Positions 1 through 60,243 of a stretch of 60,243 nt of DNA are shown here, piece after piece. The position numbers and the translations under genes are program-made. Origin of the DNA: a virus (Duplodnaviria; Caudoviricetes). Below the pieces are notes generated by a model that was given only the letters and a program-made list of their open reading frames with translations, was not told where the DNA came from and searched no databases. The stretch lies in the IMG/VR virus record IMGVR_UViG_3300034190_001683, positions 1 to 60,243 of that record; one strand, given 5' to 3'. How positions within the stretch are numbered: the stretch's first letter is position 1; the number at the start of each line of letters is the position of its first letter.

Positions 1-720
1 AAAAATCTCTTGCAGAGATTCACAAAGTATTATCAGAGGCTAGGGGTGGTTGGAAAACATTGATGTGGGCAGCAGGAGCAGGAAGTGCCGTGACTGCTTT
101 TATTATTGCAGTACAACAGATTTTTTGGGGAAAGTAATGACTAAAAAAATAAAAGGTAAAAAAGGCACACAGTCTGGTGAAGCAGGTGTAGAGAGAATAG
201 AGGCGTATGCAAGACCACAGGTTGATAAAAGAACTGAGGGAGAAAAACGTAGAGATGCTCGTAGAGAAAAAGTCAAAAATATCCCTAAAGACAAACTTTA
301 CTCTACAGGAGAAACAACTTCTGAAAAAATAGGGGATTTTGCTAACAAAATGTTTGACAAATTCGGTGCCATGACAGGGATGTCTCCTAAAGATATAGAA
401 TCTCGTGCAAGAAGAAGGTTAAACATGAGAGAAATGTTTAAGCAAATGGATGAGGCGCAAGCTTTAAGAGACGAAAGAATGGCTGACAAACGTTACCAAC
501 GAGAGCAAAGAAGAGAAGCAGAAGAAGGTGTGAGAAAGAAAGAGCTAAAAAATTTGGGTCTTAAAAAAGGCGGTAAAGTAAAAGCAAAAACTAAACCAAA
601 AACAACTAGAAAATTTAGAGGTGATGGTATTGCTAAAAAAGGTAAGACTAAATGTAAGATGAGATAAAGGAGGTTTAGGGTGGCATATTTAATTAGTAAC
701 ATTCCGTATACAAAGGTTTG
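1..720. repeat. Left-end copy of the locus repeated at the right end (59665-60243), with a different central allele
   Basis: 1-76 is identical to 59665-59740 and 644-720 is identical to 60167-60243; the sequence between is divergent. Confidence 0.95.
137..667 (+). CDS. Basic hypothetical protein, allele A (C-terminal KKGGKV...RGDGIAKKGKTKCKMR motif)
   Basis: ATG at 137 overlaps the upstream stop (TAATG); C-terminus shared with 59801-60190. Confidence 0.8.
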   Translation: MTKKIKGKKGTQSGEAGVERIEAYARPQVDKRTEGEKRRDARREKVKNIPKDKLYSTGETTSEKIGDFANKMFDKFGAMTGMSPKDIESRARRRLNMREMFKQMDEAQALRDERMADKRYQREQRREAEEGVRKKELKNLGLKKGGKVKAKTKPKTTRKFRGDGIAKKGKTKCKMR

Positions 721-29343: not shown

Positions 29344-29577
29344 CTAGTTTTTTAATTTAGCAACTAACTTTTCTACCTGTTTGATATGCGTGTCTTGAAT
29401 TGTAGTAATACCTTTGAACCAATTGTAGACAGTCATCCGAGTAACATTAAGATACTCAGCCACATCATTTACAGGTATATCGTTTTGTACACAAATTAAC
29501 CCTAGTTTTACACCTAACAAGTCTGAGTCCGCTTCGTTAACCGCATTAACAAATTGCACGGAGTAACCTTTTGACAT
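29344..29577 (-). CDS. Cro/XRE-like helix-turn-helix protein
   Basis: VAEYLNVTRMTVYNWFKG. Confidence 0.8.
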   Translation of the reverse strand: MSKGYSVQFVNAVNEADSDLLGVKLGLICVQNDIPVNDVAEYLNVTRMTVYNWFKGITTIQDTHIKQVEKLVAKLKN

Positions 29578-37656: not shown

Positions 37657-37875
37657 TTAATGGTCTTTATATAAAAACATACACATATGCTCTTTCATCA
37701 GCCACGGATAATCATTTATGTCACGCTCTGCATGACCGAGTCTGTAGCCATCGTCTTTACCAACTGTGTAAGCTTCTGTCCATAAGTCAAACGTATCGCC
37801 ATTGTATTTATCCATGAACACCCAACAAATAAATACACCCAAAACAAACGTAATGCTAGGTAATAACTTTGCCAT
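37657..37875 (-). CDS. Small membrane protein
   Basis: N-terminal hydrophobic helix; GGGGAGG RBS. Confidence 0.6.
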   Translation of the reverse strand: MAKLLPSITFVLGVFICWVFMDKYNGDTFDLWTEAYTVGKDDGYRLGHAERDINDYPWLMKEHMCMFLYKDH

Positions 37876-38152
37876 AATACCTCCCCTTTCTCATTGGCGG
37901 TCTCGATACAATAGATGGGTCTATGTCTTGTTTCTTTTTCAATTTAAAATAGTACTTATTTTTGTGTCCCCTATCTTCTTGTACACAAATTAAAAACCCA
38001 TCATCAACTAACTCTTTCATAACAGACCTAGTATGTCCTACGTTTACACCAAGACCTTGTGACACATCAGTAGGATGGTATACGGTATCCTCTGGTCTTC
38101 TTTTTATGTAATCTATTACTCTTTGTTTTACCGACTTCACAAGTTTCTTCAT
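37856..38152 (-). CDS. Winged-HTH-like protein
   Basis: PTDVSQGLGVNVGHTRSVMKELVDDGFL. Confidence 0.6.
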   Translation of the reverse strand: MKKLVKSVKQRVIDYIKRRPEDTVYHPTDVSQGLGVNVGHTRSVMKELVDDGFLICVQEDRGHKNKYYFKLKKKQDIDPSIVSRPPMRKGRYYGKVIT

Positions 38153-38438
38153 CAAGTTCCTCCGTTTGTTTTTCAATTACACGAACTTCTTGTGGTGTGA
38201 GATACACCCAGTATATTTTGTCCGTTAGTTTCCTACCCCATCCTTCTATCTCATCACCCCTATCTATCATATGTAACATACACATTTTAGACCAAAGTAA
38301 ATCAGGAAAAGGAGGGGTGCTTATTTTAAGATTATGGTCTAAGCAAAAGAAAGTACCTGTCTTGTAGGCATCATCAAGATACTCAAACCGGAATCTATAT
38401 TTAAAATAATCTGAACCGTTCATGATTACCTCACACAA
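38067..38438 (-). CDS. Hypothetical protein
   Basis: ORF track. Confidence 0.55.
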   Translation of the reverse strand: MCEVIMNGSDYFKYRFRFEYLDDAYKTGTFFCLDHNLKISTPPFPDLLWSKMCMLHMIDRGDEIEGWGRKLTDKIYWVYLTPQEVRVIEKQTEELDEETCEVGKTKSNRLHKKKTRGYRIPSY

Positions 38439-41554: not shown

Positions 41555-41801
41555 GTATCTCCTCCAAGTCTTTTTCCTCTGGTTTATCATCTCTTGTCTT
41601 TAGATACACGACATCGGATATATGTTTAAGTACCCACATAGTACCTACACCACCAAAGCCAAAGATTATGGCAGATGATTCTAGGACATCATACAAACCA
41701 TAGTTTGCTATACCCTCAAACATCATACCTGCGGTAAAAAATACAAGACCCCAAATTAAAAACAACCCTGCCACATCAAAAATTATTTTAAGCTTCTTCA
41801 T
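41541..41801 (-). CDS. Two-TM membrane protein
   Basis: Two hydrophobic helices; GAGGAGG RBS. Confidence 0.65.
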   Translation of the reverse strand: MKKLKIIFDVAGLFLIWGLVFFTAGMMFEGIANYGLYDVLESSAIIFGFGGVGTMWVLKHISDVVYLKTRDDKPEEKDLEEIHDNI

Positions 41802-41942
41802 TTACACCTCCTCTTTTTGTTTAATTAAATCTAACAACTCATGAGCCAAATCCAACCTACCTCTCAACATATCGTAGTGTGATGAGTGTAAACGGACGTC
41901 AGACTTAGCTTTCTCTATTGCCCTCATAACATCTTGGTTCAT
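41802..41942 (-). CDS. Small hypothetical protein
   Basis: ORF track 41802-41993; start uncertain. Confidence 0.45.
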   Translation of the reverse strand: MNQDVMRAIEKAKSDVRLHSSHYDMLRGRLDLAHELLDLIKQKEEV

Positions 41943-41992
41943 GACAACTTCTCTCTCTAACAACTTCACTATCACTTCGAGTAATTTAACCA

Positions 41993-42466
41993 TCAGTATT
42001 TCCTTTCAGGTAAAGTGTCCTCATCAACTTCTTTAAGACTAGGTTTGTTTAAATCAAAGTCAAAATACTCACCCTCATCTTCATCGTAGTAATACTCATC
42101 GCCATTCTCATCGCATGGAGTCATCTTTGGTGCGAGGTTACGGAAACTACCCCACCCATCATCAGGGACTTCTATTCTGTAATCATAGAATTGTTCTTCT
42201 ATGTATTCGGGTATGACTCTTTCAAAAAACTGTCGAGCAGAATCATAACAGTCTCTAACGAACCAACCATTTAATTGGTCTAAATCTCTAACCTTTACGA
42301 TGGTGTCTAACGGAACAGTTACATCCCCAAAGTCTTCTGTATTAAGATGGATTGTCCCAGTTATACGAACAAGTATGTACTTGTTCTCTTTAGAGTAATT
42401 ACCAAACGTAACGACCGATTTTGGGTTATCTAAACACTCCTCAATGTGTTGTTGTATCTTACTCAT
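41993..42466 (-). CDS. Acidic hypothetical early protein
   Basis: AAGGAGAGC RBS; D/E-rich C-terminus. Confidence 0.75.
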   Translation of the reverse strand: MSKIQQHIEECLDNPKSVVTFGNYSKENKYILVRITGTIHLNTEDFGDVTVPLDTIVKVRDLDQLNGWFVRDCYDSARQFFERVIPEYIEEQFYDYRIEVPDDGWGSFRNLAPKMTPCDENGDEYYYDEDEGEYFDFDLNKPSLKEVDEDTLPERKY

Positions 42467-42476
42467 TTGCTCTCCT

Positions 42477-42758
42477 TTAGTTAATTATTGAATCAATCTT
42501 AGCTTTGGCATTTGCGAGATAAACTTCTTCATCTGTGTTGGGGTTTGGACTATACAATCTCTCATCAACAACATTTCCGTTTTTATCCACAACTTGGTAA
42601 GTATATTTTTTTAATCCTGATACCATGTTGCAACTTTCAAAAGGAAAATTCATAATTGCTGATATAAGTATGTCATAACCTCTATACTCAACAAGTTCCC
42701 CTGAATTTATCTTGAGGTTTCGTATGTGGTTTGTTACAGAGTCTTTATCTTTACTCAT
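42477..42758 (-). CDS. Hypothetical early protein
   Basis: AAGGAGAGC RBS. Confidence 0.7.
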   Translation of the reverse strand: MSKDKDSVTNHIRNLKINSGELVEYRGYDILISAIMNFPFESCNMVSGLKKYTYQVVDKNGNVVDERLYSPNPNTDEEVYLANAKAKIDSIIN

Positions 42759-42778
42759 TTTGCTCTCCTTTAGTTAAA

Positions 42779-44038
42779 TTAAACTTCTACATCTACGTGA
42801 ACACTCGTGCCATTGTCTGCTTGGATATGCTTGTCGGTAATACCCCAGAAGACAGGACAGTTCCAACCACTACCCCAGTTCGGTACATAACCATCTGTGA
42901 ACATGATGACTGACTGTGGTCTCATCTTGTTGTCGTTTATATATCTGGACACACACGATGGGTCAGTACCACCACCACCTGCGACTTTTGTAGATGCGAT
43001 TAGATTTTCTAGTTCGCTTTGTTGATACGTTTCGACAGGCGTGTAGACTTCTCCGTCCCAGTACATCAAGTCAATTTTCTCTGGTGCGATGTCCTTACAG
43101 ATAGCGGATATCTCTCCGAGGAACGCAGATATTTGTTTCTGACTGACTGAGCCTGATGTATCCACACCAATCACAATCGGCCCTGCGTTTTCACTAACAA
43201 GAGATGGCATGATGATATCCTGTGAAACCCACCTACGGTTTGGTCTGCGCCACGAGGAAACGTCTTTACGTGAGTTGTAATTACTGATGAATGACCGGAG
43301 CATATCTCGCCAGTTAATCTTAGGCTCAAGTATCTCTGTCACACCTCTCGCTACCTTAGCCGACACCATCTCCGCATATGCTTTACCCTGTCGCAATGCT
43401 TCTTCGATGCGTTGGTCTAGTGCTTCCTGTGCGTTGGGGTCATCAGACCTTGCTTTCGCTTCTTCCCACATATGGTCATCAAGTGTCTGTCCTTTACTGC
43501 TATCGCTTTGGTCTTGGTCACCCTGTTCAGAGTCACCACTAGTGGCTTCTCCATTTCCTCCTCCTTGTTTAGATTTACTGCCGTTGAAGATATCATCGAA
43601 TATCTTTTTAGTATCCAACACTCGACCATCTTGGTAATACTTGTCGTCACATATCCCACCCTCGATAGGCTCTAAGAACTTCTCCGATGGGTCAATCTCA
43701 TACTTCATTGTGAGATTAATGACGTTATCAGTAGCCAGATTGGTAGACATAGCGCACTTAAGAAACAAGGCTCTCCATACTGTCATATGCTTGAACGCCA
43801 CGTGCATGACCTCGTGCATAATCAAGTACCGCAACTGTGCATCAGTAAGTTTGCGTATGAACTCGATGTTGAGATAAACATTCAAACCATCAGTCGCACC
43901 TGTTTTTATCTTGTGGTCTTTGTCTACTACATGAAACAGACACATCATAATCACAGCGGAAAACATGACCGTACGTGGGTCATTCATCAATACGACTTTC
44001 TGTTTGGTTACTCTCCTAATAGCTTGTTGCTTTGTCAT
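42779..44038 (-). CDS. Metallopeptidase-vWA protein (DUF2201-like)
   Basis: TGATDG, HEVMH zincin motif; vWA MIDAS DTSGS, GGGGTD, FTDG. Confidence 0.9.
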   Translation of the reverse strand: MTKQQAIRRVTKQKVVLMNDPRTVMFSAVIMMCLFHVVDKDHKIKTGATDGLNVYLNIEFIRKLTDAQLRYLIMHEVMHVAFKHMTVWRALFLKCAMSTNLATDNVINLTMKYEIDPSEKFLEPIEGGICDDKYYQDGRVLDTKKIFDDIFNGSKSKQGGGNGEATSGDSEQGDQDQSDSSKGQTLDDHMWEEAKARSDDPNAQEALDQRIEEALRQGKAYAEMVSAKVARGVTEILEPKINWRDMLRSFISNYNSRKDVSSWRRPNRRWVSQDIIMPSLVSENAGPIVIGVDTSGSVSQKQISAFLGEISAICKDIAPEKIDLMYWDGEVYTPVETYQQSELENLIASTKVAGGGGTDPSCVSRYINDNKMRPQSVIMFTDGYVPNWGSGWNCPVFWGITDKHIQADNGTSVHVDVEV

Positions 44039-44051
44039 AACTTCTCCTTTC

Positions 44052-44975
44052 TTATTGACCTAGACCATACTTACTTACAACATCTTCAAGTGAACGCTTT
44101 GTAGCATGACGGACACTATCACTATCACGACACATCTTCGCATCACGCCCATTAACAGCTTGTCGTAAGTCAGATATTAACTTCGTAATATTCGGGTCAT
44201 CAGTTAGATTCAAAGAGTCACCGATATCACAGATGTCATGTATATTACCCAACAACGTGGCTCTAAATATCTTATGATTCTTGAGTCCTTGCTTAGTCTT
44301 AATAGGCACAGGTTCATCTTCAAGACCCTTGATTGCATTTTTAACTACCTCTTGGATTCTACCTACCACATCTTCCATTGACGCTGTCAACTTTTCTGTC
44401 ATGGTAGCTATCATATCGGACTCTAACTTCTGTCTGACTTCCTCAGTAGCTTGGACATGAAACGAACCACTAGGAACAGGACACTCCTCTAGTCTGTATC
44501 TAAACTTGCGCTTGATTTCTTGTGCGCTTGGATACTCTCCACGTGTGACAAGATTATTCAGTAAGAATATAGAAGACGTCACGGACTCCTCGTAGTTTGT
44601 CTCATCTGTAAAGTCCTCAATAAGTTTCTCAAGCTTATCTAGCATGGGGTTTATCTGCTCACAAAATGGTATGTAATTACTAAACTTCATGATTCTCCAA
44701 CCACCCTTCTCAAACACGTTTGTATTCGTGTTAACAAAGTCACGAACCACATTGATTTGCTTACCTATTGCCTTAAACCTTTCGCATTGGGGGAATAATA
44801 TCTTGTTGTAATTACCACCTTTGGTCTTGGTTTGTTTCTGCTCATCAATCTCTGCGGATACATTCTTGTCTAGCTTTCTACCTGTGTATGCGGACACATT
44901 TAGTTTCACAAGAATACAACGCTTGAAAAGATTAGATGTAGCTTGGGGTGTTACGGTATCAAATATCTTTGACAT
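44052..44975 (-). CDS. Helical protein between AAA and vWA genes (DUF3150-like, tentative)
   Basis: 307 aa; YPSA.EI..KF and LNLTDDP motifs. Confidence 0.6.
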   Translation of the reverse strand: MSKIFDTVTPQATSNLFKRCILVKLNVSAYTGRKLDKNVSAEIDEQKQTKTKGGNYNKILFPQCERFKAIGKQINVVRDFVNTNTNVFEKGGWRIMKFSNYIPFCEQINPMLDKLEKLIEDFTDETNYEESVTSSIFLLNNLVTRGEYPSAQEIKRKFRYRLEECPVPSGSFHVQATEEVRQKLESDMIATMTEKLTASMEDVVGRIQEVVKNAIKGLEDEPVPIKTKQGLKNHKIFRATLLGNIHDICDIGDSLNLTDDPNITKLISDLRQAVNGRDAKMCRDSDSVRHATKRSLEDVVSKYGLGQ

Positions 44976-45004
44976 AATGCTCTCCTTAGTTAAGTTAAAA
45001 AATT

Positions 45005-45022
45005 GTAGGAGTCGACTCCTAC
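45005..45022. repeat. Palindrome GTAGGAGTCGACTCCTAC, copy 1
   Basis: Perfect 18-bp palindrome, intergenic. Confidence 0.95.
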
Positions 45023-45027
45023 GTGAA

Positions 45028-46146
45028 CTACTTAGTGAAAATCCAATTCATCTCCATCGCACGTTTCTGGAACGTGTCGTTGTCGATTGCGATTTCCTGC
45101 TTCTTACTACTCATGATTGACCGATAAAATACAGCTTCCCATTCGTCCTTGAACTTGTCACGCATCATGTACTGACACAATGCTGTGAGTGTATCCTCTG
45201 CTGTTGTGACAATAGCTTTAGTCATCAACATACATTGAACCATCGTGTCTTCAGGGATAGGTGCGGTCTTAGGATTAGATAACAGATTACCCCAGTCTGG
45301 TAACTTGTAACCCATCTTGACCTCGGTCATCAGGTCTATACCACTAAGCGTACCAATTGCGCCACACAAAGATGCGGTCAACTCTTCCTCATCTAGTTCG
45401 TCTTTGGCTTTAATCATGTCACTAGCCGCTTCAAGTGAATACGGACACACAAACATATCTGTGCTAGGTTCTCTGCTTGGGTTGAAAATACGCTTACTGT
45501 CAGACCCATCTAGGTATGACTCCAAACAGTCGGGATGATTACGCACAAACATAATGACCTCTGGTGCAATATCATTATCCAACGCATACTCCATCCAACT
45601 ATCAGGCTCGACAAACTCCTTGCCATTCTCATCTACACCAATACCTGCGTGTGGCTTACGTACCAATACCTTTACAGTACGTCTACGTTGATGAGCCTTG
45701 AGTGTATCCATCAACCCATCACTCGCACAGTTTGTAGTGGCAAACACTAGCGAACCCTCTGGCAGATAATTCATACCTTGTCTACGTTCTTGAAGAATAG
45801 GTAATATACTATTGAGTGTACTCTGTGGTGCTTTACCCAACTCATCAAACATAATTATCTGTGGCTTGTTGTCCTGAAAACCTAACAAATGGTTCGGTGC
45901 AAATACTGTGACGTGCATACCATTCATTTCGACAACACGTGGCATTTGAATGTCACCTGTATCTAGCGTAGTACAGTCAACAATGTTGTACCCATACTTA
46001 TCGCCAAATTCCTCAATAAACGAATACAGAATATAAGACTTACCAATACCTGTCTCGCCCTCAAACAAATACGTACGCTTACGACCCAATACTTTGACTA
46101 GGTTCTTCGCACCACGCAAACTTACAGAATGATTGTATCCAATCAT
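45028..46146 (-). CDS. AAA+ ATPase (MoxR/dynein-related type)
   Basis: GETGIGKS Walker A, MFDE Walker B, ATTN sensor 1; linked to the vWA gene. Confidence 0.88.
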   Translation of the reverse strand: MIGYNHSVSLRGAKNLVKVLGRKRTYLFEGETGIGKSYILYSFIEEFGDKYGYNIVDCTTLDTGDIQMPRVVEMNGMHVTVFAPNHLLGFQDNKPQIIMFDELGKAPQSTLNSILPILQERRQGMNYLPEGSLVFATTNCASDGLMDTLKAHQRRRTVKVLVRKPHAGIGVDENGKEFVEPDSWMEYALDNDIAPEVIMFVRNHPDCLESYLDGSDSKRIFNPSREPSTDMFVCPYSLEAASDMIKAKDELDEEELTASLCGAIGTLSGIDLMTEVKMGYKLPDWGNLLSNPKTAPIPEDTMVQCMLMTKAIVTTAEDTLTALCQYMMRDKFKDEWEAVFYRSIMSSKKQEIAIDNDTFQKRAMEMNWIFTK

Positions 46147-46177
46147 TTGACTCTCCTTAATTTAAGATTAAAAAAAC

Positions 46178-46195
46178 GTAGGAGTCGACTCCTAC
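46178..46195. repeat. Palindrome copy 2
   Basis: Identical 18-mer in the 5' leader of the AAA gene. Confidence 0.95.
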
Positions 46196-46215
46196 ACACC
46201 ACACTACATACACAT

Positions 46216-46244
46216 ATACTATATGTATACATTTACAATGTCAA
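46216..46244 (-). promoter_or_regulatory. Sigma70 promoter TTGACA-N17-TAGTAT
   Basis: Same -35/-10 pair as 30888-30916. Confidence 0.65.
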
Positions 46245-46251
46245 TATCCAA

Positions 46252-46428
46252 TCATTTTTCCTCCTTTCTTATTTTTTCTATTTCAGGGTTTACAGCAAAA
46301 TCACGAACGATTCTCTTAAGTTCTTCTCTTCTTTTGAATCTCGCTTCCGCTTCTCGGTGTCTGCGTTCATGCTCAAACATAAACGCTAGGTGTTTAAGAC
46401 CAAACTCACAACTCCACTTTTTTCTCAT
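46252..46428 (-). CDS. Small charged hypothetical protein (58 aa)
   Basis: Hand-translated MRKKWSCEFG...; ATGA overlap with the upstream gene. Confidence 0.55.
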   Translation of the reverse strand: MRKKWSCEFGLKHLAFMFEHERRHREAEARFKRREELKRIVRDFAVNPEIEKIRKEEK

Positions 46429-46637
46429 CTCGTACTCCCATATAAATCTCTGTATGCTTCAATGACTTGCTTTGCAGACAAATCAAGTTTAGCCATTACT
46501 TCTCTCACTTGTTGTTTGGATATAGTATCCATTTCAATTTGGTCAAATACCTCTTCAACATCCTCAGGACTAATTCCAAATCGCTGTGCTACTTTTAACG
46601 CTACATCTACTGCTACATGACTGTGTGATAAATTCAT
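46425..46637 (-). CDS. Hypothetical early protein
   Basis: AAGGAGAGC RBS. Confidence 0.7.
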   Translation of the reverse strand: MNLSHSHVAVDVALKVAQRFGISPEDVEEVFDQIEMDTISKQQVREVMAKLDLSAKQVIEAYRDLYGSTR

Positions 46638-46647
46638 TACGCTCTCC

Positions 46648-46833
46648 TTATTTTTTGTGAACAGTTTTTAAATCATCGGTGTTTGTGATTAGTTGTGGTG
46701 CGCCCTTGTTGTAGGCACACGCCACTGTGCGTGTAGGTGCGACGAAACAAGCAGGGCAATACTGATACCCTGCTTTCCATCTGCGTTTCGTTACTCGGAC
46801 ACCACACCTACACGTGTATTTACGCATGGGCAT
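46648..46833 (-). CDS. Small zinc-ribbon protein
   Basis: CRC...RRWKAGYQYCPAC...NKG. Confidence 0.7.
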   Translation of the reverse strand: MPMRKYTCRCGVRVTKRRWKAGYQYCPACFVAPTRTVACAYNKGAPQLITNTDDLKTVHKK

Positions 46834-47056
46834 AGTTTCTCCTCTTGGTAGGTTTCAGCGGTATCACTCTTTTCACACCCTTGTCATTCAGAAACACATC
46901 ACGCTCGGACATGACGAATGGTACGTTGCCATCGTGCGTAGTCGTTCCTCTACGTTCGATTACTTTCACTTTATCAAGTGCTTCTACCGTTTTGGCAATG
47001 GCTTTCATTTGAAGCAACTGTTCAGGGGTTACTACTGATTTGACTTTGAATGTCAT
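46820..47056 (-). CDS. Hypothetical early protein (first ORF after the long leader)
   Basis: AAGGAGAGC RBS before ATG 47056. Confidence 0.7.
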   Translation of the reverse strand: MTFKVKSVVTPEQLLQMKAIAKTVEALDKVKVIERRGTTTHDGNVPFVMSERDVFLNDKGVKRVIPLKPTKRRNYAHA

Positions 47057-47127
47057 AATGCTCTCCTTTAAATAAAAATAAATAAAAACAAATTGACACA
47101 AACAGAGTGTCGATGAACACTTAGGTC

Positions 47128-47145
47128 GTAGGAGTCGACTCCTAC
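47128..47145. repeat. Palindrome copy 3
   Basis: Identical 18-mer. Confidence 0.95.
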
Positions 47146-47535
47146 ACGTGGACACGTAAATGCTCATCGCCACCCTGTTTTCAAAATGGCTAGTTCCTCT
47201 GCTACTTCTCCGCAGTTCATGGTATTGAGGTTAGGAACAAAAGACGTCAAGATGCTGTAGTGCCAACACGACAAACTCGACACAACAAATCGTGCTACAA
47301 CAAAGTGACGTACGGAGGTACTCACAACGAACTACAAACAAAGGGAGGATAACCAGAAAGAAAGCTTACTCCGGCAAACAAGAGACAGAGGACTAAACCA
47401 CCCGAAACACAAAATGTCAAAGTCTTGAAACGTGGTTGCCAATGGAGAGCGGATATCGAAAGAGTCCGCATATAACTAAAGAACCAGTCATAGCCTGTAT
47501 GAATGTAGAAGCGATGCCCCTACTCCGTACCCGAC

Positions 47536-47554
47536 GTAGGAGTCAGACTCCTAC
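47536..47554. repeat. Palindrome copy 4 (19-bp variant with central A; arms extend to 47533-47557)
   Basis: GACGTAGGAGTC-A-GACTCCTACGTC. Confidence 0.95.
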
Positions 47555-47573
47555 GTCAATGGCGTTTCCGAAT

Positions 47574-47585
47574 TGTTAAAGAACA
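47574..47585 (-). promoter_or_regulatory. boxA antitermination motif
   Basis: TGTTCTTTAACA, 11/12 match to rrn boxA TGCTCTTTAACA, about 30 nt downstream of a promoter. Confidence 0.65.
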
Positions 47586-47621
47586 AACAACTTGCGTTGC
47601 AATCCCAAATGGACTTCGTCC

Positions 47622-47650
47622 ATTGTATCATATTTATATGAGATTGTCAA
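47622..47650 (-). promoter_or_regulatory. Strong early sigma70 promoter TTGACA-N17-TACAAT with extended -10
   Basis: TTGACAatctcatataaataTGaTACAAT on the minus strand. Confidence 0.8.
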
Positions 47651-47678
47651 TAGGTAACCACTTTGGAATTTTCGTGAT

Positions 47679-47697
47679 GTAGGAGTCAGACTCCTAC
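47679..47697. repeat. Palindrome copy 5 (19-bp variant)
   Basis: GTAGGAGTC-A-GACTCCTAC, 28 bp upstream of the -35 box. Confidence 0.95.
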
Positions 47698-47699
47698 GT

Positions 47700-48060
47700 T
47701 TGTTCCAAGCGTTCCACGTTTGTTCCACCCTGCGGAACGATAGTTTTGTCAAATATATCATGAGGTTACGTGCGATAGTGTCAGCCTGTTCCGCTGTTCC
47801 ACCCTAATACAAACACCTGCCGAGAGGGTCGAATGAAGAGTTTCAACCACGACATCTTTGATACCAGTTATGGGAGGTCGTTCGTATATGTTACCTTTTA
47901 CAATAATAATAATAATAATAATAATAATATCCTTTAGAATCAAAAACTTAGGTGCAAAAAAGTCTGTTCCACCTCTGGAACGCACGTAAACTTTCTTCAA
48001 TAATATCAAGTGCTTAGAGTGTTCCACAATCTGGAACAGGCTGGAACAGCCGGAACAACG
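47700..48060. other. Putative replication origin: GTTCC/GGAAC iteron-like repeats around an (AAT)9 tract
   Basis: About a dozen GTTCC/GGAAC units; AAT x9 at 47902-47928; non-coding. Confidence 0.5.
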
Positions 48061-48080
48061 ACATTATATGTATATTAGAT

Positions 48081-48098
48081 GTAGGAGTCGACTCCTAC
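48081..48098. repeat. Palindrome copy 6
   Basis: Identical 18-mer followed by GCCAC. Confidence 0.95.
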
Positions 48099-48316
48099 GC
48101 CACTTTAGTATGATGTTATGTATTTGTAATCTAGTATTTGTATGATGTAATTTATTTTTTACGATGTGGATTTGGTTCGTAGCTTGACTGAACTTGACAA
48201 CTCTTGATGGAACTGGCTTCGAAGAAGCCCGCCGTCCTTCAGACGGCGAAGCGGGGCGGCGCTGCCTTTGCGACGCCCCGCTTTTGACACCAGTTCTCTG
48301 CGAGAAATTTTAGGCG

Positions 48317-48345
48317 AAAAAAAACCCCGACCGGAGTCGGGGTTT
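48317..48345 (-). terminator. Intrinsic terminator
   Basis: AAACCCCGAC-TCCG-GTCGGGG followed by T8 on the minus strand, just after stop 48364. Confidence 0.85.
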
Positions 48346-48363
48346 GTGAGGAGTGTTGCAAGG

Positions 48364-49011
48364 TTAGGCTTTCTTTTCGTCAGCCTGTTGAGCGTTTGTG
48401 AGAGCATCTCTGACGTAGGACAACACGTCTAGCATTGGAGCGTGATTCTCAGCATCAGCCTTTTCTTGTAGTTTGATAATGGATTTTGAAAAGTCTTCGA
48501 CTATTTCACTTTTGTTTTTATCAGCCTTAATTCTAACCTGATAGAAAACATCGCCATTGCTATTGCTAGAGCCAGACTGTCTCGCAGGGTTGAAACTGAA
48601 TTTCTCTTTATTGTTGACAACATTGCGGAGAATCTTCAAATACGTTTGAACAGTTTGAGCCGTATAGAATGGCTCGCCATCTTCATCGACTAGGTCGTAA
48701 AGATATTGTGCAATCGCATTGGCGTTAGGGCAAGACCTAGCGGTATCTTGCGTTTGCCTAGTCTCAAAACCCTTCTGACCATTTTCGCCTTTAGCGTAAC
48801 CAGCCTTTCCAATCGTGACGCCAGCCTTTCGTAGTTCCTTGGCTTTGTCATCGAATTGTTTTTGCTTATCCTTAACGCCAGCCTTAGCGTTTATAAGAGC
48901 GTCTTGAGCGATATCCAAATCCGCCTTTGCGCCAGTACCTTCTAAGAAAGCCTTAGTAAGACCGATGGATAAAGCAACAGTATTAACAACAACGTTTGTT
49001 TTGGTAGTCAT
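48364..49011 (-). CDS. Stand-alone leftward hypothetical protein (probable immediate-early gene)
   Basis: GAAGGAGA RBS before ATG 49011; own terminator; TTGACA at 49094-49099 (weak -10). Confidence 0.8.
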   Translation of the reverse strand: MTTKTNVVVNTVALSIGLTKAFLEGTGAKADLDIAQDALINAKAGVKDKQKQFDDKAKELRKAGVTIGKAGYAKGENGQKGFETRQTQDTARSCPNANAIAQYLYDLVDEDGEPFYTAQTVQTYLKILRNVVNNKEKFSFNPARQSGSSNSNGDVFYQVRIKADKNKSEIVEDFSKSIIKLQEKADAENHAPMLDVLSYVRDALTNAQQADEKKA

Positions 49012-49132
49012 AATTTTCTCCTTCAAAATGACTGTTAATGAAATATGGCAATTACCGCAACCACAACTATATAGTCTCACAACCCTGTTACACTGTCAAA
49101 TAATACGTGGTAATTAATTGTCGTGTGTTGTC

Positions 49133-49150
49133 GTAGGAGTCGACTCCTAC
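49133..49150. repeat. Palindrome copy 7
   Basis: Identical 18-mer followed by GCCAC. Confidence 0.95.
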
Positions 49151-49286
49151 GCCACCCCTTTTCGAGTTATAGCCTAGAGAACTGGTCTCCCCCACCCCCC
49201 TGTGTGTGTCAGATGGGACCCGGCTGTCTGTACTGTGTGTTTTGCTCGTTAGATTTCAAATTTTTTGAAAATAGACCCACCCCCTA

Positions 49287-49315
49287 TTGACTTTTTATGA
49301 GACCCGTGGTAGGTT
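49287..49315 (+). promoter_or_regulatory. Putative rightward promoter TTGACT-N17-TAGGTT (extended -10)
   Basis: Upstream of the terminase genes. Confidence 0.5.
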
Positions 49316-49365
49316 CAAAATCTAACAAGTACCCCCTAACGAAAAAAGGAGTCCCGTTTCCTCTC

Positions 49366-49950
49366 ATGCCACTAACAATTACACCAGACGTAGGAATACC
49401 ACTACCATTTGATGTAACACCAGAAGAGGTAAAGGATTTTAGAAAGAAGGCAAAAGCAGCCTTTAACACTATCAAATCTCTACTAGATGCTGGCGCTCAG
49501 ATGCCAGAATTAGACGAGGGTACATCCACACAAGCACACGAATTAATGGCACGGGAAAAACTCCCGGTTGCTAAGACACCGCCCGGTGTAATAATAAAAC
49601 TAGAAGCCTTGCTGACTCATTATGATCATGAGTTTCTAAATGCAAATGACAGGCTCGCAAATTATGTAACGAATAGATTATTGGAAGAAACTGAGAATGA
49701 AGATGCACGTTTTCGATTAAAGGCATTGGAGTTGCTTGGAAAGCGCAGAGGGGTAAACTTATTCTCAGAGCAACACGATGTCACAATAAGACAGAAACCT
49801 ACCGAAGATATAGAAAACAGATTGAATCAGATATTGGGTAGGTATGTAACAGATGTAGAAACAGTGGAGGAGAACACTAATGAACTTTTAGAGAATGAAT
49901 CAGATCACACCTCTACAGATTATCAAGAAAAACCCGCATCTACTAAGTAA
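49366..49950 (+). CDS. Putative terminase small subunit
   Basis: Directly before terL; RLKALELLGK...LFSE motif; ATG 49366 lies downstream of the promoter. Confidence 0.7.
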   Translation: MPLTITPDVGIPLPFDVTPEEVKDFRKKAKAAFNTIKSLLDAGAQMPELDEGTSTQAHELMAREKLPVAKTPPGVIIKLEALLTHYDHEFLNANDRLANYVTNRLLEETENEDARFRLKALELLGKRRGVNLFSEQHDVTIRQKPTEDIENRLNQILGRYVTDVETVEENTNELLENESDHTSTDYQEKPASTK

Positions 49951-51421
49951 GTTACCTGCTGAAGTAAAAGCAGAAGTAGCAGATTATTTAGAAGAGCTTG
50001 CAGATAGAGAACGGTCTGAAAAGGCTAAGAGTTCTTTCATGGAGTTTGTTACACAGGTCTGGCCTAGCTTTATTCATGGCGCACACCACAAGAGGATGGC
50101 AGGGGCGTTTGAAGAAGTGATGAGTGGACAATGTAAAAGACTTATCGTAAATATGCCTCCACGGCATACGAAGTCAGAATTTGCTAGTTATTTGTTGCCA
50201 GCATGGTTTTTAGGGAAGTATCCTGATAAAAAAGTAATCCAAACCTCGCATACGGCAGAACTTGCGGTTGGTTTTGGTAGAAAGGTACGAAATCTTGTCG
50301 ATTCTGAAACGTATAAAAACATATTTCCAGACGTTGGACTTCAGGCTGACTCAAAGGCGGCTGGGCGTTGGGCTACCAACAAGGGAGGAGACTACTTTGC
50401 TATCGGTGTTGGAGGCGCTGTTACGGGTAAAGGTGCGGATGTCCTCATCATTGATGACCCTCATTCGGAGCAAGAAGCAGCGCAAGCCGAAATAAACCCT
50501 GAAATCTACGATAAAACCTACGAATGGTACACATCTGGTCCTCGACAGCGTCTACAACCGGGCGGAGCGATCATAATTGTTATGACAAGGTGGTCAAAAA
50601 GGGACTTAACAGGTCAAGTTATGCGTGCTGCAGCGCAAAGAGGTGGTGAAGATTGGAAAGTTATAGAATTTCCTGCGATTTTACCGAGTGGTAACCCACT
50701 TTGGCCTCAATTTTGGCCTCTAATCGAGCTAAATGCACTAAAAGAAGAGCTACCTAACTCAAAATGGATGGCTCAGTACCAACAAAACCCCACATCTGAG
50801 GGTTCAGCCATTGTAAAACGAGAATGGTGGCAGATTTGGGAGAAAGAAGACCCACCTGCTTGTGAATTTGTCCTACAATCTTGGGATACAGCGTTTGAAA
50901 AGAACAATCGAGCAGACTATTCAGCCTGTACTACATGGGGTGTGTTTTATAAAGAGGATGATACAGGTGTGCCACAGGCTCAGATTATGTTATTAAATGC
51001 GTTTCGCAGAAGAATGGAGTTTCCAGAGCTAAAAAAAGTTGCTTTAGAAGAGTATACGGATTGGGAACCAGATTCTATAATAATAGAGAAGAAAGCATCG
51101 GGCGCTCCGCTAATTTATGAGATGAGAGCGATGGGAGTGCCTGTGCAGGAGTTTACTCCTAGTAAAGGTAACGACAAAATATCACGATTAAACGCAGTTT
51201 CAGATTTATTCGCTTCGGGCAGAGTATGGATACCCAACACAAACTGGGCAGAAGAGGTTGTAGATGAAGTAGCAAGTTTTCCTGCAGGAGAGCATGATGA
51301 CTATGTGGACTCAACTTCTTTAGCAATGATGAGATTTAGAAAAGGTGGGTTTATACGCACTCTTCTTGATGAAGAAGATGAAGCACCAAATTATAGAAGG
51401 CACAGAGAGCCTTACTACTAA
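49895..51421 (+). CDS. terL: Terminase large subunit
   Basis: MPPRHTKS Walker A, IIDDP Walker B, MTRW, YQQ.P, SWDTA and HDDYVD nuclease motifs. Confidence 0.95.
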   Translation: MNQITPLQIIKKNPHLLSKLPAEVKAEVADYLEELADRERSEKAKSSFMEFVTQVWPSFIHGAHHKRMAGAFEEVMSGQCKRLIVNMPPRHTKSEFASYLLPAWFLGKYPDKKVIQTSHTAELAVGFGRKVRNLVDSETYKNIFPDVGLQADSKAAGRWATNKGGDYFAIGVGGAVTGKGADVLIIDDPHSEQEAAQAEINPEIYDKTYEWYTSGPRQRLQPGGAIIIVMTRWSKRDLTGQVMRAAAQRGGEDWKVIEFPAILPSGNPLWPQFWPLIELNALKEELPNSKWMAQYQQNPTSEGSAIVKREWWQIWEKEDPPACEFVLQSWDTAFEKNNRADYSACTTWGVFYKEDDTGVPQAQIMLLNAFRRRMEFPELKKVALEEYTDWEPDSIIIEKKASGAPLIYEMRAMGVPVQEFTPSKGNDKISRLNAVSDLFASGRVWIPNTNWAEEVVDEVASFPAGEHDDYVDSTSLAMMRFRKGGFIRTLLDEEDEAPNYRRHREPYY

Positions 51422-59538: not shown

Positions 59539-59801
59539 TGGAAAAAGAAGAGATACAGAAAATCTTCAGAGGTGATATTAAAAGTGAAGTTGCTGTTCAG
59601 GCAAATGAGATAAAACACCTTCATTCTGACGTAGAGGATATGAAAGCTGATATAGAAGAAATTAAAAAATCTCTTGCAGAGATTCACAAAGTATTATCAG
59701 AGGCTAGGGGTGGTTGGAAAACATTGATGTGGGCAGCAGGCGCAGGAAGCGCTGTAACTGCTTTTATTATTGCAATACAACAAATTTTTTGGGGAAAGTA
59801 A
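59538..59801 (+). CDS. Coiled-coil protein with one C-terminal TM helix
   Basis: TAATG coupling on both sides; its 3' part is repeated at 1-137. Confidence 0.7.
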   Translation: MEKEEIQKIFRGDIKSEVAVQANEIKHLHSDVEDMKADIEEIKKSLAEIHKVLSEARGGWKTLMWAAGAGSAVTAFIIAIQQIFWGK

Positions 59802-60190
59802 TGAATCAAAAAGAAAAAAAACGTCTTTTAAGTGTTGACGCTATACCCGCTGCAGGAAAGATGGATGAGTTTATAGAAAAAAGAATGCAAGCAAAATTCC
59901 CAAAGCTGTACCCTGATGATGAAGCAAAGAAAACAATGTCAAAAAAAGACAAGGCTGAGATTGATGCTTTTATGAAACGTTATGAAAAAGATAAAGATCT
60001 TACAGATGAGTTTAAGAAAAAAATTAGGGGGGAATTAGAAGACGGCTATGCACGGGTTAGAGGTAAATCAAAAGCTCAAAGTGGAGGCATGAAAGCCGGA
60101 GGTAAAGTAAAAGCTAAGAAAAAAACAACCAGAAAATTTAGAGGTGATGGTATTGTTAAAAAAGGCAAGACTAAATGTAAGATGAGATAA
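59801..60190 (+). CDS. Basic hypothetical protein, allele B
   Basis: Same position and C-terminus (MKAGGKV...RGDGIVKKGKTKCKMR) as 137-667. Confidence 0.8.
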   Translation: MNQKEKKRLLSVDAIPAAGKMDEFIEKRMQAKFPKLYPDDEAKKTMSKKDKAEIDAFMKRYEKDKDLTDEFKKKIRGELEDGYARVRGKSKAQSGGMKAGGKVKAKKKTTRKFRGDGIVKKGKTKCKMR

Positions 60191-60243
60191 AGGAGGTTTA
60201 GGGTGGCATATTTAATTAGTAACATTCCGTATACAAAGGTTTG

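What the first reader, a model, noticed from the sequence alone, without database searches (positions are those of the whole stretch)
45005..49150. Seven copies of a perfect 18/19-bp palindrome confined to the early control region
Seen: GTAGGAGTCGACTCCTAC at 45005, 46178, 47128, 48081 and 49133, and a variant with one extra central base at 47536 and 47679. All are intergenic and I noticed none elsewhere. The arms are invariant while the centre tolerates an insertion, which fits a stem-loop or cruciform (GUAGGAG/CUCCUAC with a 4-5 nt loop) better than a rigid operator. Each pairs an SD-like AGGAG with its complement. Two lie about 30 bp upstream of TTGACA boxes, three lie in 5' leaders, and one follows boxA. 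Inference: binding sites for a phage regulator or an injected protein, antitermination/RNA-processing hairpins, or signals used during DNA entry.
Basis: partly seen in the sequence, partly recalled or inferred. Interest (0 to 1): 0.8.

Follow-up and report, generated by a model that had tools for sequence, protein, structure and literature searches.

The report
Lineage-specific palindromes paired with early protein
Seven identical palindromes in the early region of an uncultured marine phage look like the recognition sites of the phage's own first early protein, and both parts change together between nearly identical phages.

Summary
There are five 18-mers and two 19-mers at the stated coordinates, none elsewhere in the 60,243-bp virus record, and 0 expected by chance.

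Relatives carry their own perfect palindromes at the same early-region spots. Arms are invariant within a genome and differ between genomes; the centre base is free.

A phage with 99.8% identical TerL, and 97-100% nucleotide identity in most 200-nt bins, has GTAGAAG instead of GTAGGAG in every copy. Its first early gene (window 48364-49011) is replaced by a homolog that is only 16-21% identical by the alignment used.

Among close phage pairs, the N-terminal part of this orphan, mostly basic protein tracks the palindrome type in 7 of 7 pairs. Its C-terminal part does not. It is predicted to form a homodimer.

Best reading (about 0.5): these are duplex-DNA operators of that early protein, forming a fast-switching specificity pair that controls early transcription. 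Some copies also act as hairpin terminators.

Main rival (about 0.25): RNA hairpins of a nut-like or processing system. Binding was not tested, and no DNA-binding fold was recognised.

The parts
49133..49150 (.). Palindrome copy 1 (18-mer). It lies 33 nt upstream of the -35 box of the leftward promoter P1, in the divergent region next to the TerS gene.
   Evidence: syntenic copy in relatives
48081..48098 (.). Palindrome copy 2 (18-mer). It lies after the terminator of the first early gene and overlaps a promoter-like TCGACT-17-TATAAT (48091-48063, minus strand).
47679..47697 (.). Palindrome copy 3 (19-mer). It lies 28 nt upstream of the -35 box of P2.
47536..47554 (.). Palindrome copy 4 (19-mer). 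It sits in the P2 leader, 18 nt after a boxA-like element. Its flanks extend the symmetry to 12-bp arms.
47128..47145 (.). Palindrome copy 5 (18-mer). It lies at the end of the long untranslated P2 leader, about 50 nt before the SD of the 78-aa gene.
46178..46195 (.). Palindrome copy 6 (18-mer). It sits in the 5' leader of the MoxR-type ATPase gene and is followed by GTTTTTTT.
45005..45022 (.). Palindrome copy 7 (18-mer). It starts 5 nt after the ATPase stop codon, is followed by AATTTTTT, and lies 17 nt before the SD of the next gene.
48364..49011 (-). First early gene (215 aa). It belongs to an orphan helical family that begins 'MTTK...'. It is the proposed palindrome-recognition protein, with the N-terminal part (about residues 1-140) giving specificity.
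49071..49099 (-). P1, inferred: TTGACA-17-GACTAT with TG before the -10 element. It is conserved in relatives.
   Evidence: read. The scan did not list it (-10 matches 3 of 6).
47622..47650 (-). P2: TTGACA-17-TACAAT, matching 11 of 12 consensus positions.
   Evidence: conserved in relatives
47573..47585 (-). boxA-like TGTTCTTTAACAA in the P2 leader.
   Evidence: A perfect 12-mer sits at the same spot in L079, L080, L066 and L063.
46216..46244 (-). Promoter-like TTGACA-17-TAGTAT in front of copy 6.
48322..48345 (-). Strong intrinsic terminator after the first early gene. It is identical in L006.

Best explanation
The seven palindromes are the cis half of a two-part, lineage-specific recognition system. 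The trans half is the product of the first early gene (48364-49011). This gene is transcribed from the host-type promoter P1 and is followed by a strong terminator.

The protein is an orphan, all-helical protein and is predicted to be a symmetric homodimer. I propose that it reads the 9-bp half-sites of the palindrome as duplex DNA, mainly through its N-terminal part. The centre base pair is not read, and the spacing tolerates 0 or 1 bp.

The sites lie upstream of P1 and P2, in the leaders behind P2 and the ATPase promoter, and between cistrons. Through them the protein would act as a global regulator of the early region. The most likely actions are autoregulation and turning early host-RNA-polymerase transcription down, or blocking it, in the manner of Cro, stoperator-type or KorB-type regulators.

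When transcribed, the same sequences fold as hairpins of -8 to -11 kcal/mol. Where a T-run follows (copies 6 and 7), they also look like intrinsic terminators.

Shown here: the sites; their family-wide synteny with lineage-specific sequences; the concerted switch; the covariation with the N-terminal part; and the predicted dimer.

Inferred: that the protein binds the sites, that it binds DNA rather than RNA, and the direction of regulation.
For: 1. Non-random and confined. There are 7 copies against 0 expected, and none elsewhere in the record.

2. Relatives have their own palindromes at syntenic early-region spots.
- L005 and L006: GTAGAAGTC(N)GACTTCTAC, 7 copies each.
- L082 contig: GTTAAGTCNGACTTAAC, 7 perfect copies plus 2 with one mismatch, all within 41576-47966 of 48,940 bp.
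- L079 and L080: CTCAAGTCNGACTTGAG, 5 copies each. L066: 5 copies. L063: 4 copies.
- L039 contig: CCTAACAWTGTTAGG, 14 perfect copies plus 8 with one mismatch, all in about 12 kb adjoining TerL on a 65-kb complete record.

3. Symmetry reaches the innermost bases in all 12 palindrome types, while the centre base varies. A homodimer on duplex DNA predicts this. A hairpin does not.

4. Natural swap between the window and L006. TerL is 99.8% identical, and nucleotide identity is 97-100% in most 200-nt bins over about 14 kb. Yet all 5 shared palindrome positions carry the symmetric G>A / C>T change. The early gene is 33-41% identical at the nucleotide level and about 21% at the protein level (BLASTP E = 1.1). 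Its SD, its 'MTTK' start and its terminator are unchanged.

5. Among pairs with TerL at least 91% identical, N-part identity follows the palindrome.
- Same palindrome: N-part 81% identical (2 of 2 pairs).
- Different palindrome: N-part 19-38% identical (5 of 5 pairs).
- The C-part does not follow: 44% with the same palindrome, 81-83% with different ones.
- In L066 against L063, blastn similarity breaks at the N-terminal half of the gene.

6. Co-occurrence. All 14 loci with a family member carry such palindromes. None of the 8 loci with at least 4 kb upstream of TerL and no recurrent palindrome has a family member.

7. Homodimer prediction. The score is 0.82 against a best control of 0.00. The runs agree in at least 95% of contacts, and the partner's pLDDT is at least 76. 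In the tool's calibration this mark was reached by 20 of 30 proteins solved as pairs of one chain and by 1 of 23 solved as single chains; these counts hold only roughly because my own alignment was used.

8. 10 of 13 family members have a pI of 9.5-10.1.

9. Within-contig homogeneity. Both short metagenome contigs that hold two copies carry a single type.

10. Precedent. Cluster A mycobacteriophage repressors act at up to about 30 dispersed stoperators, and the motifs diverge together with the repressor (PMC6550527, passages read; PMC9283540, abstract in the search listing).
Against: - Binding was not tested in any way.
- No DNA-binding fold or family was recognised. Pfam and PHROGs gave nothing. 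Three of 145 representatives gave stray Pfam hits in two unrelated families. The PDB sequence profile gave E of 1 or worse. Foldseek's best E was 1.1. VIA-align gave a best Z of 7.5 on a generic helical hairpin for the whole model and Z 4.6 for the N-part. The models have only medium confidence (pLDDT 70.5 and 71.2).
- A Mantel test of half-site distance against N-part distance over all 13 proteins is not significant (r = 0.15, p = 0.19). The signal rests on 5 independent close contrasts.
- On the early-sense strand, the centre base of perfect odd copies is A 14, T 10, C 9, G 0 (C against G, p = 0.004; about 0.016 if syntenic copies are merged). Pure duplex symmetry does not predict this strand bias. 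It hints at a constraint at the RNA or single-strand level.
- The window mixes 18-mers and 19-mers, so the spacing between half-sites is not fixed.
- Site positions relative to promoters vary: 1 to 53 nt upstream of the P2 -35 box across lineages. No single classical operator geometry fits.
- Five palindrome-bearing loci of other types (L022, L024, L037, L039, L089) have no detectable family member.
- Other small cassettes also differ between the window and L006: 46226-46648 and 42447-42628.
- The HTH proteins at 29344, 35475 and 37856 could be compared only with L005, and only in part: 37856 is 83% identical, 35475 is 97% identical over 38 aa, and 29344 is not covered.
Confidence: 0.5

Rival explanations
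1. The palindromes act as RNA (or single-strand DNA) hairpins in early transcripts. They would be nut-like loading sites for an N-like antiterminator, or processing or stability signals that punctuate the polycistronic early RNA. The same first early protein would recognise them.
For: - The candidate protein is the first gene behind an early promoter, is followed by a strong terminator, and in most members has a basic, poorly ordered N-terminus. As I recall it, lambda N has a similar layout.
- A boxA element sits at a syntenic place in the P2 leader, 18-50 nt before a palindrome. It is a perfect 12-mer in L079, L080, L066 and L063, and has 1 mismatch in the window, L005 and L006.
- Copies 6 and 7 have T-runs and score as terminators.
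- The hairpins fold at -8 to -11 kcal/mol, and the boxA-adjacent copy folds at -18.6 kcal/mol.
- Two copies bracket a conserved, apparently structured leader RNA in several lineages.
- G is absent from the centre on the sense strand: 0 of 33 copies against 9 C.
Against: - Stems are invariant and the loop is free. This is the opposite of loop-reading hairpin binders such as N with boxB (recalled).
- Complementarity extends into positions that cannot pair, in all 12 palindrome types.
- There are 7-22 copies per genome, some inside ORFs in the L039 contig by a crude ORF call.
- Copy 1 lies upstream of P1. It is transcribed only if a weak rightward promoter-like site (49076-49104, 9 of 12 matches) is real.
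- T-runs are missing after most copies: present after 2 of 7 in the window and 0 of 7 in L082.
- One-mismatch copies do not favour G-U pairing on the sense strand (1 of 8 in the L039 contig).
- The protein is predicted to be a folded symmetric dimer.
Confidence: 0.25
2. The palindromes are binding sites of another factor, such as one of the small HTH proteins (29344, 35475, 37856) or a protein encoded outside the compared region. The hypervariable first early gene would be something else, for instance an anti-defence gene, and its turnover would only coincide with the palindrome switch.
For: - The first early protein has no recognisable nucleic-acid-binding fold.
- First early genes of lytic phages are often fast-evolving host-takeover genes (general knowledge, recalled).
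- The winged-helix protein at 37856-38176 is 83% identical in L005, so a specificity change there cannot be excluded.
- Lineages with the CTAACA-type palindrome lack the family.
Against: - Five independent close contrasts tie the N-part, not the C-part, to the palindrome type.
- All 14 loci with a family member carry palindromes.
- Among the cassettes that differ between the window and L006, the 58-aa, 70-aa and 93-aa genes do not behave alike in L005 and L006, although these two share one palindrome type.
Confidence: 0.12
3. The palindromes are structural or mobile DNA elements rather than regulatory sites. They could be recombination hot spots at module borders (like the promoter-stem-loop cassettes of T4-type phages), miniature mobile palindromes, or signals for packaging, replication or stepwise DNA entry.
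For: - Copies are gained and lost as short indels in otherwise identical DNA. Examples are a 63-bp insert carrying a copy in L006 and the replacement of copy 3.
- The copies sit at borders of functional modules.
- The cluster adjoins TerS and a conserved G-rich block, and lies beside an iteron-rich, AT-rich stretch.
Against: - The replaced early-gene segment ends at the gene's own borders, not at palindromes.
- The family has no conserved catalytic-looking residues. Invariant positions are M1 and L125 in A3; A2 adds D202, which is only nearly invariant in A3. No His or Tyr motif is conserved.
- 18 bp is short for homologous exchange.
- The spread over 4-12 kb does not fit a single origin or pac site.
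Confidence: 0.08
4. The palindromes are ordinary intrinsic terminators or chance or assembly repeats.
For: Copies 6 and 7 score as terminator-like.
Against: - Only 2 of 7 copies have a T-run.
- Seven hairpins with identical sequence are not needed for termination.
- Zero copies are expected by chance.
- The stretch recurs in 17 DNA runs from 10 studies and in independent contigs.
Confidence: 0.03

Closest known systems
Stoperators and the immunity repressor of Cluster A mycobacteriophages (L5, Bxb1). Sources: PMC6550527, passages read; PMC9283540, abstract in the search listing.
   Same: Many near-identical short sites are dispersed through part of the phage genome. Many lie just downstream of promoters or between genes. 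One phage protein is bound at all of them. The motif and the protein diverge together between related phages, giving specificity groups.
   Different: Stoperators are asymmetric and are bound by a monomeric HTH repressor of a temperate phage (PMC9283540 abstract). Here the sites are perfect palindromes. The candidate protein is an orphan helical predicted homodimer with no HTH detected. No lysogeny genes were seen among the 32 ORFs scanned, all from the early region and its borders; the rest of the genome was not scanned.
Conserved inverted repeats (CIRs) of Streptomyces phage phiC31 and its repressor. Recalled from memory; one search did not retrieve the papers.
   Same: As I recall, these are highly conserved 17-bp inverted repeats in many intergenic positions. 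They are bound by the phage repressor, which autoregulates, and some could also act as RNA stem-loops or terminators.
   Different: phiC31 is a temperate actinophage with an unrelated repressor.
Lambda Cro/CI operators and the immunity (imm) specificity regions of lambdoid phages (recalled).
   Same: A small homodimer encoded by the first gene of an early operon binds dyad-symmetric sites of about 17 bp. Near-identical phages differ in a matched protein/site cassette.
   Different: Lambda has six sites that overlap two promoters. Here there are 7-22 sites spread over 4-12 kb, mostly outside promoter cores. No HTH was detected.
Lambda N / nut (boxA plus boxB) antitermination (recalled).
   Same: The first early gene is followed by a terminator. 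A boxA lies next to a hairpin in an early leader. The protein/hairpin specificity differs between related phages.
   Different: boxB is read through its loop, and there are two nut sites. Here the loop is free, the stems are invariant, there are many copies, and the protein is a predicted folded dimer.
KorA/KorB global regulators of IncP plasmids, and KfrA (recalled).
   Same: Identical palindromic operators repeated at many promoters or at a distance from them coordinate a whole gene set. KfrA is an alanine-rich helical autoregulator.
   Different: These are plasmid systems, and no sequence or fold relation was found.

Membership tests
Stoperator-type dispersed operator system | Many near-identical sites dispersed through a genome region, largely intergenic | tested here: met
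   7 copies in the window. 7-22 copies in relatives, confined to the early region.
Stoperator-type dispersed operator system | The site motif diverges together with the phage-encoded binding protein | tested here: met
   The window/L006 swap. In close pairs, 7 of 7 are consistent for the N-part. The global Mantel test was not significant.
Stoperator-type dispersed operator system | Asymmetric site with an orientation bias relative to transcription; monomeric HTH repressor | tested here: not met
   The sites are perfect palindromes. A homodimer is predicted. No HTH was detected.
Stoperator-type dispersed operator system | The protein physically binds the sites and blocks transcription | not testable with these tools
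   Needs EMSA or footprinting and reporter assays.
Lambda N / nut antitermination | boxA followed by a hairpin within an early transcript | tested here: met
   Met for 1 of 7 copies (47536), where a boxA-like element lies 18 nt upstream. The other six copies have no boxA.
Lambda N / nut antitermination | Hairpin recognised through a conserved loop | tested here: not met
   The centre or loop base varies (A, T, C) while the stems are invariant.
Lambda N / nut antitermination | Small, intrinsically disordered arginine-rich protein | tested here: inconclusive
   The N-terminus is basic and has low confidence in the monomer model. The protein is 215 aa and is predicted to be a folded dimer.
Intrinsic (Rho-independent) terminators | GC-containing hairpin directly followed by a T-run | tested here: not met
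   Only 2 of 7 copies qualify (46178 and 45005). 0 of 7 qualify in L082.
N4-type hairpin promoters for a virion RNA polymerase | The phage encodes a giant virion RNA polymerase | tested here: inconclusive
   No RNA polymerase family was found in the 32 ORFs scanned. These included the 2085-aa protein, which carries LPD38 only. The structural-gene half was not scanned.
REP / RAYT-type mobile palindromes | Palindromes flank a HUH-Y1 transposase gene | tested here: not met
   The gene is flanked by copies 1 and 2, but the family has no conserved His-x-His or Tyr. Invariant positions are M1 and L125 in A3 (A2 adds D202).
Cro-type early repressor | Homodimer binding dyad-symmetric operators that overlap early promoter cores | tested here: inconclusive
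   A dimer is predicted. Only copy 2 overlaps a promoter-like site; the others lie upstream or downstream of promoters.

The most novel reading that the evidence does not exclude
The palindromes and the orphan early protein form a rapidly diversifying 'self-recognition code' in abundant lytic marine phages. The first protein made after infection would bind every copy of its own palindrome type. It would silence or insulate the early region of its own genome, and also that of any same-type superinfecting phage.

Rare specificity types would then be favoured. Protein and sites would persist as islands of divergence while recombination homogenises everything between them.

The protein would also be a new kind of sequence-specific DNA-binding fold, and the sites would work both as DNA operators and as RNA hairpins.
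Probability: 0.18. Interest if true: 0.8.

Novelty: new variant of a known kind. Interest (0 to 1): 0.62.

Why it matters
If the pairing is real, it gives three things.

1. A function for an orphan protein family. The family has 173 clusters at 50% identity at E up to 0.001 in 1.84 billion representatives and no annotation anywhere.

2. A regulatory logic for the early region of a large group of uncultured marine phages. The stretch itself occurs in seawater runs from 10 studies.

3. A clean natural example of protein/site co-switching. Two phages with 99.8% identical TerL differ in all shared sites and in the regulator. This makes specificity evolution directly testable by swapping 18-bp sites and one gene.

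The work also shows that the absence of a motif from close relatives can reflect a specificity switch rather than lack of function.

Tried and rejected
- **Cultured relatives.** Megablast of 44000-50000 against 50,697 phage records found no match. Cultured relatives share only 45% or less portal identity. The nearest, phage 023Pt_psg01, has no recurrent palindrome in 41.9 kb.
- **RNA families.** No tRNA was found. Rfam gave nothing at gathering score for the whole window. In 46900-49300 there were only two hits, at E about 0.9-1.0.
- **The exact motif elsewhere.** GTAGNAGTCGACTNCTAC in IMG/VR gave 12 stretches. Multi-copy hits occur only in the two close relatives; 6 other contigs have single hits, taken as chance.
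- **More carriers of the early protein.** Searches of IMG/VR with the window's protein, with L006's protein and with P0051 found no new carrier. Alignment A2 was too variable for a locus search.
- **Context-anchored search.** A pattern anchored on the conserved flanks of copy 5 gave only the 2 known viral contigs and 4 short metagenome contigs.
- **Fold and family of the early protein.** Nothing was recognised. PHROGs and Pfam were empty. The PDB profile gave E of 1 or worse. Foldseek's best E was 1.1. VIA-align on the whole model gave Z 7.5 on a generic C-terminal helical hairpin, and on the N-part Z 4.6 to chorismate mutases, which is within noise. The ESM Atlas returned only viral hypothetical clusters, best score 0.88.
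- **RNA evidence.** Three RNA-library runs hold small shares of the stretch as contigs. Contigs cannot show ends, strand or level, so they say nothing firm about hairpin function.
- **Ideas dropped.** The SD-like AGGAG as a functional part was rejected because it is not conserved. GTCGAC or GAGTC as restriction-type sites were rejected because the flanks and cores differ between lineages.
- **Literature.** One search for conserved inverted repeats in phage repressor systems and one for the boxA 12-mer gave nothing usable. No search was made for prior descriptions of this phage group, so I make no claim that it is unpublished.

Full report
**1. The observation**

The exact 18-mer occurs at 45005, 46178, 47128, 48081 and 49133. 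No further copy appears at up to 2 mismatches. The gapped pattern adds the 19-mers at 47536 and 47679. One hundred dinucleotide-preserving shuffles gave none.

The window is a whole virus record (60,243 bp, completeness 96) and has no other copy. Outside the palindromes each 7-mer arm occurs only twice.

All copies lie between ORFs that have plausible ribosome-binding sites.

The stretch 44900-49300 is held at 99% or more of sampled words by 17 DNA runs from 10 seawater or marine studies; some of these may be the source. One DNA run covers all seven copies without a difference. An artefact is excluded.

**2. Setting**

Genes from 26448 to 49080 run leftward. They include DNA polymerase A, an SNF2 helicase, a DUF927 primase-helicase, a PD-(D/E)XK nuclease, a MoxR-type ATPase and a DUF2201/VWA protein. 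TerS-like, TerL and portal genes run rightward from 49297.

Read leftward, the order of elements is as follows:

- copy 1
- P1 (inferred: TTGACA-17-GACTAT preceded by TG)
- a 215-aa gene (48364-49011)
- a strong terminator (48345-48322)
- copy 2
- an iteron-rich and (AAT)n stretch
- copy 3
- P2 (TTGACA-17-TACAAT)
- a boxA-like element
- copy 4
- a long untranslated leader
- copy 5
- four small genes
- a TTGACA-17-TAGTAT promoter
- copy 6, followed by a T-run
- the ATPase gene
- copy 7, followed by a T-run
- the remaining early genes, which carry no further copy

No cultured phage is close. Megablast found nothing, and the best portal identity is 45%.

**3. Relatives**

Two IMG/VR contigs encode an ATPase that is 91-93% identical. 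Neither holds the window's motif. Both hold seven copies of GTAGAAGTC(N)GACTTCTAC. This is the same palindrome with one symmetric base-pair change per arm.

TerL gave more than 601 relatives, of which the best 80 loci were kept. Thirteen of the 80 loci show a recurrent perfect palindrome: 11 with arms of 7 or more, plus L022 and L024 with arms of 6. Among the 18 loci with at least 4 kb upstream of TerL, 10 show one and 8 do not.

The sequences differ from lineage to lineage. Examples are GTTAAGTCNGACTTAAC, CTCAAGTCNGACTTGAG, TTACTGTCNGACAGTAA, AACTTCACACNGTGTGAAGTT and CCTAACAWTGTTAGG. The positions, however, are syntenic: upstream of P1, upstream of P2, after boxA, in the ATPase leader, and just before the SD sequences of other genes.

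On two long contigs all copies sit in the early region beside TerL. One is 48.9 kb and has 9 copies. The other is a complete 65-kb record with 22 copies, some inside ORFs by a crude ORF call.

T-runs after the palindrome are not conserved.

**4. DNA duplex or hairpin?**

In all 12 palindrome types seen, the complementarity runs to the innermost bases, while the single centre base is free. Folded as RNA, the innermost 3-4 bases are loop. A hairpin therefore gives no reason for them to be complementary, whereas a homodimer reading two identical half-sites on duplex DNA does. Stems are invariant and the loop is variable. This is the reverse of known loop-reading hairpin binders (recalled).

Against a purely duplex reading stands a strand bias. 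On the early-sense strand, the centre base of perfect odd copies is A 14, T 10, C 9, G 0. G appears only in three copies upstream of P1. I cannot explain this bias. It keeps an RNA or single-strand role open, at least as a second function.

**5. The partner**

I aligned the window with L006. TerL is 99.8% identical, and most 200-nt bins over about 14 kb are 97-100% identical. The exceptions are:

- the first early gene (33-41% nucleotide identity)
- short indels that add or remove palindrome copies
- two small-gene cassettes

Every one of the five shared palindrome positions carries the symmetric change.

The two early proteins are about 21% identical (BLASTP E = 1.1). They nevertheless belong to one family. 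Their SD, their 'MTTK' start and their terminator are identical. An HMM built from seven members finds 14 members in the loci, and they align over their whole length.

L066 and L063 behave in the same way. Their flanks are identical, their palindromes differ, and blastn similarity breaks at the N-terminal half of the gene.

Among pairs with TerL at least 91% identical:

| Palindrome | N-part identity | Pairs |
|---|---|---|
| same | 81% | 2 of 2 |
| different | 19-38% | 5 of 5 |

The C-part does not follow: it is 44% identical in a pair with the same palindrome and 81-83% identical in pairs with different palindromes. These seven pairs amount to five independent contrasts. A Mantel test over all 13 proteins is not significant (r = 0.15, p = 0.19).

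All 14 loci with a family member carry palindromes, and the 8 long loci without palindromes have no member. Five loci with other palindrome types have no detectable member but carry a different gene at that place.

The other cassettes that vary between the window and L006 do not behave alike in L005 and L006, although these two share one palindrome type.

Physical linkage cannot explain the pattern. The co-switching copies lie up to 4 kb from the gene and are separated from it by identical DNA. The simplest population picture is selection for matched protein/site sets, with recombination homogenising the DNA in between (inference).

**6. The protein**

No family is known for it:

- Pfam and PHROGs gave nothing.
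- 51 homologs in the 5.8-billion-protein set are all unnamed, apart from one stray label.
- There are 173 clusters at 50% identity at E up to 0.001. Of 145 scanned against Pfam, 3 gave stray hits in two unrelated families.

The AlphaFold models are all-helical and of medium confidence (pLDDT 70.5 and 71.2). No structural relative stands out.

Ten of 13 members have a pI of 9.5-10.1. The window's own protein has a pI of 8.4.

A homodimer prediction passes. The score is 0.82 against a best control of 0.00; the runs agree in at least 95% of contacts; the partner's pLDDT is at least 76. In the tool's calibration, 20 of 30 proteins solved as pairs of one chain and 1 of 23 solved as single chains reached the mark, and these counts hold only roughly because my own alignment was used. 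This supports a dimer but does not show one, and it says nothing about nucleic-acid binding.

**7. Mechanism proposed**

The first early protein, as a dimer, binds its own palindrome type on duplex DNA through its N-terminal part. Through sites around P1 and P2, in leaders and between cistrons, it regulates the early region as a whole. I judge autoregulation together with turn-down or roadblock of host-polymerase transcription the most likely action.

In several lineages the copies upstream of P1 are imperfect, as might be expected of a weaker autoregulatory site (inference).

Copies followed by T-runs probably also terminate transcription. The boxA in the P2 leader suggests that Nus-factor-modified polymerase reads through them (inference from recalled knowledge of boxA).

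Confidence is about 0.5. The RNA-hairpin version, with the same protein as binder, gets about 0.25.

**8. Comparison and novelty**

The system works most like dispersed operator systems whose motif diverges with the regulator. The closest documented case is the stoperators of Cluster A mycobacteriophages (PMC6550527, passages read; PMC9283540, abstract in the listing). It also resembles phiC31 CIRs, lambdoid immunity cassettes and KorA/KorB operators (all recalled).

It is not a member of the stoperator family. The sites are palindromic, the protein is unrelated and predicted dimeric, and the 32 scanned ORFs (early region and its borders) show no lysogeny genes.

I rate it a new variant of a known kind. 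The protein family and the phage group are undescribed in the libraries searched. I did not search the literature for this phage group, so I make no claim that it is unpublished.

Noticed in passing
window 47057-47615 (minus strand); L082 5200-5770, L079 3105-3610, L066 7075-7610, L063 7155-7665: The P2 leader is a 450-560-nt untranslated stretch with blocks conserved across lineages. A long-range helix shows two compensatory pairs: GTACGGAG (47530-47523) pairs with CTCCGTAC (47317-47310) in the window and L006, against GCAGAG/CTCTGC in the other lineages. This looks like a structured RNA, protected by boxA and bracketed by two palindrome copies. Rfam has no match.
   Followed up: partly
window 47573-47585 (minus strand); same place in L079, L080, L066, L063, L005, L006: A boxA-type element sits about 25-35 nt after the P2 -10 element. 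It is a perfect 12-mer, GCTCTTTAACAA, in four lineages and has one mismatch in the window. The consensus is recalled, not taken from a paper read here.
   Followed up: partly
window 47700-48060: GGAACA/TGTTCC repeats are concentrated here: 10 of the 35 occurrences in the window lie in 47150-48360. A run of AAT repeats lies at about 47902-47930. The stretch is 100% identical in L006 and recurs in other lineages, so it looks like an origin or another protein's binding array.
   Followed up: partly
window 49151-49296: A G-rich block lies between copy 1 and the TerS-like start (GGGGGGTGGGGG..., CGGGTCCCAT, GCAAAACACAC). It is conserved in all relatives examined. It may be a packaging site, a genome end or late-promoter signals.
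   Followed up: no
window 47955-48208: In one RNA-library run (X18), contigs over this stretch have depth 50-100, against 3-7 for its other contigs on the region. One contig joins 48177 back to 47955. Contigs cannot show strand, ends or level, so this is only a hint of an abundant small RNA or a repeat.
   Followed up: no
window 48195-48300: A GC-rich, hairpin-rich element lies just after the early-gene terminator. It is nearly identical in L006, and no ORF there has any family match.
   Followed up: no
window 1-720 and 59665-60243: The record's ends hold diverged copies of each other: 1-154 matches 59665-59818 at 93.5%, and 581-720 matches 60104-60243 at 94.3%. This could be an imperfect circular overlap of two strains or a real duplicated gene.
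   Followed up: partly
window 19913-26170 (+): A 2085-aa protein carries an LPD38 'large polyvalent protein' domain, and I read an HExxH-like motif in its translation. It is probably a virion-delivered multi-domain protein. No RNA polymerase family was detected.
   Followed up: no
window 46648-46833 (-); L079 2560-2778, L063 6489-6890, L089 87-299: A small Cys-rich, zinc-ribbon-like protein has a conserved C-terminal motif (..APMHKSNY..DLKGINNKGG in relatives). It is conserved across lineages with different palindromes, so it is unlikely to be the specificity factor.
   Followed up: partly
L006 7598-7660 against window about 48150: L006 has a 63-bp insert that carries an extra palindrome copy. 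It appears to be flanked by the same TAC triplet on both sides, which resembles a small insertion event.
   Followed up: no
L039 5554-6081 and 7022-7534; L089 1359-2141: Lineages with the CCTAACAWTGTTAGG palindrome carry a different protein of 170-175 aa, in two paralogs in L039, where the 'MTTK' family sits in the window. It may be an analogous partner.
   Followed up: no
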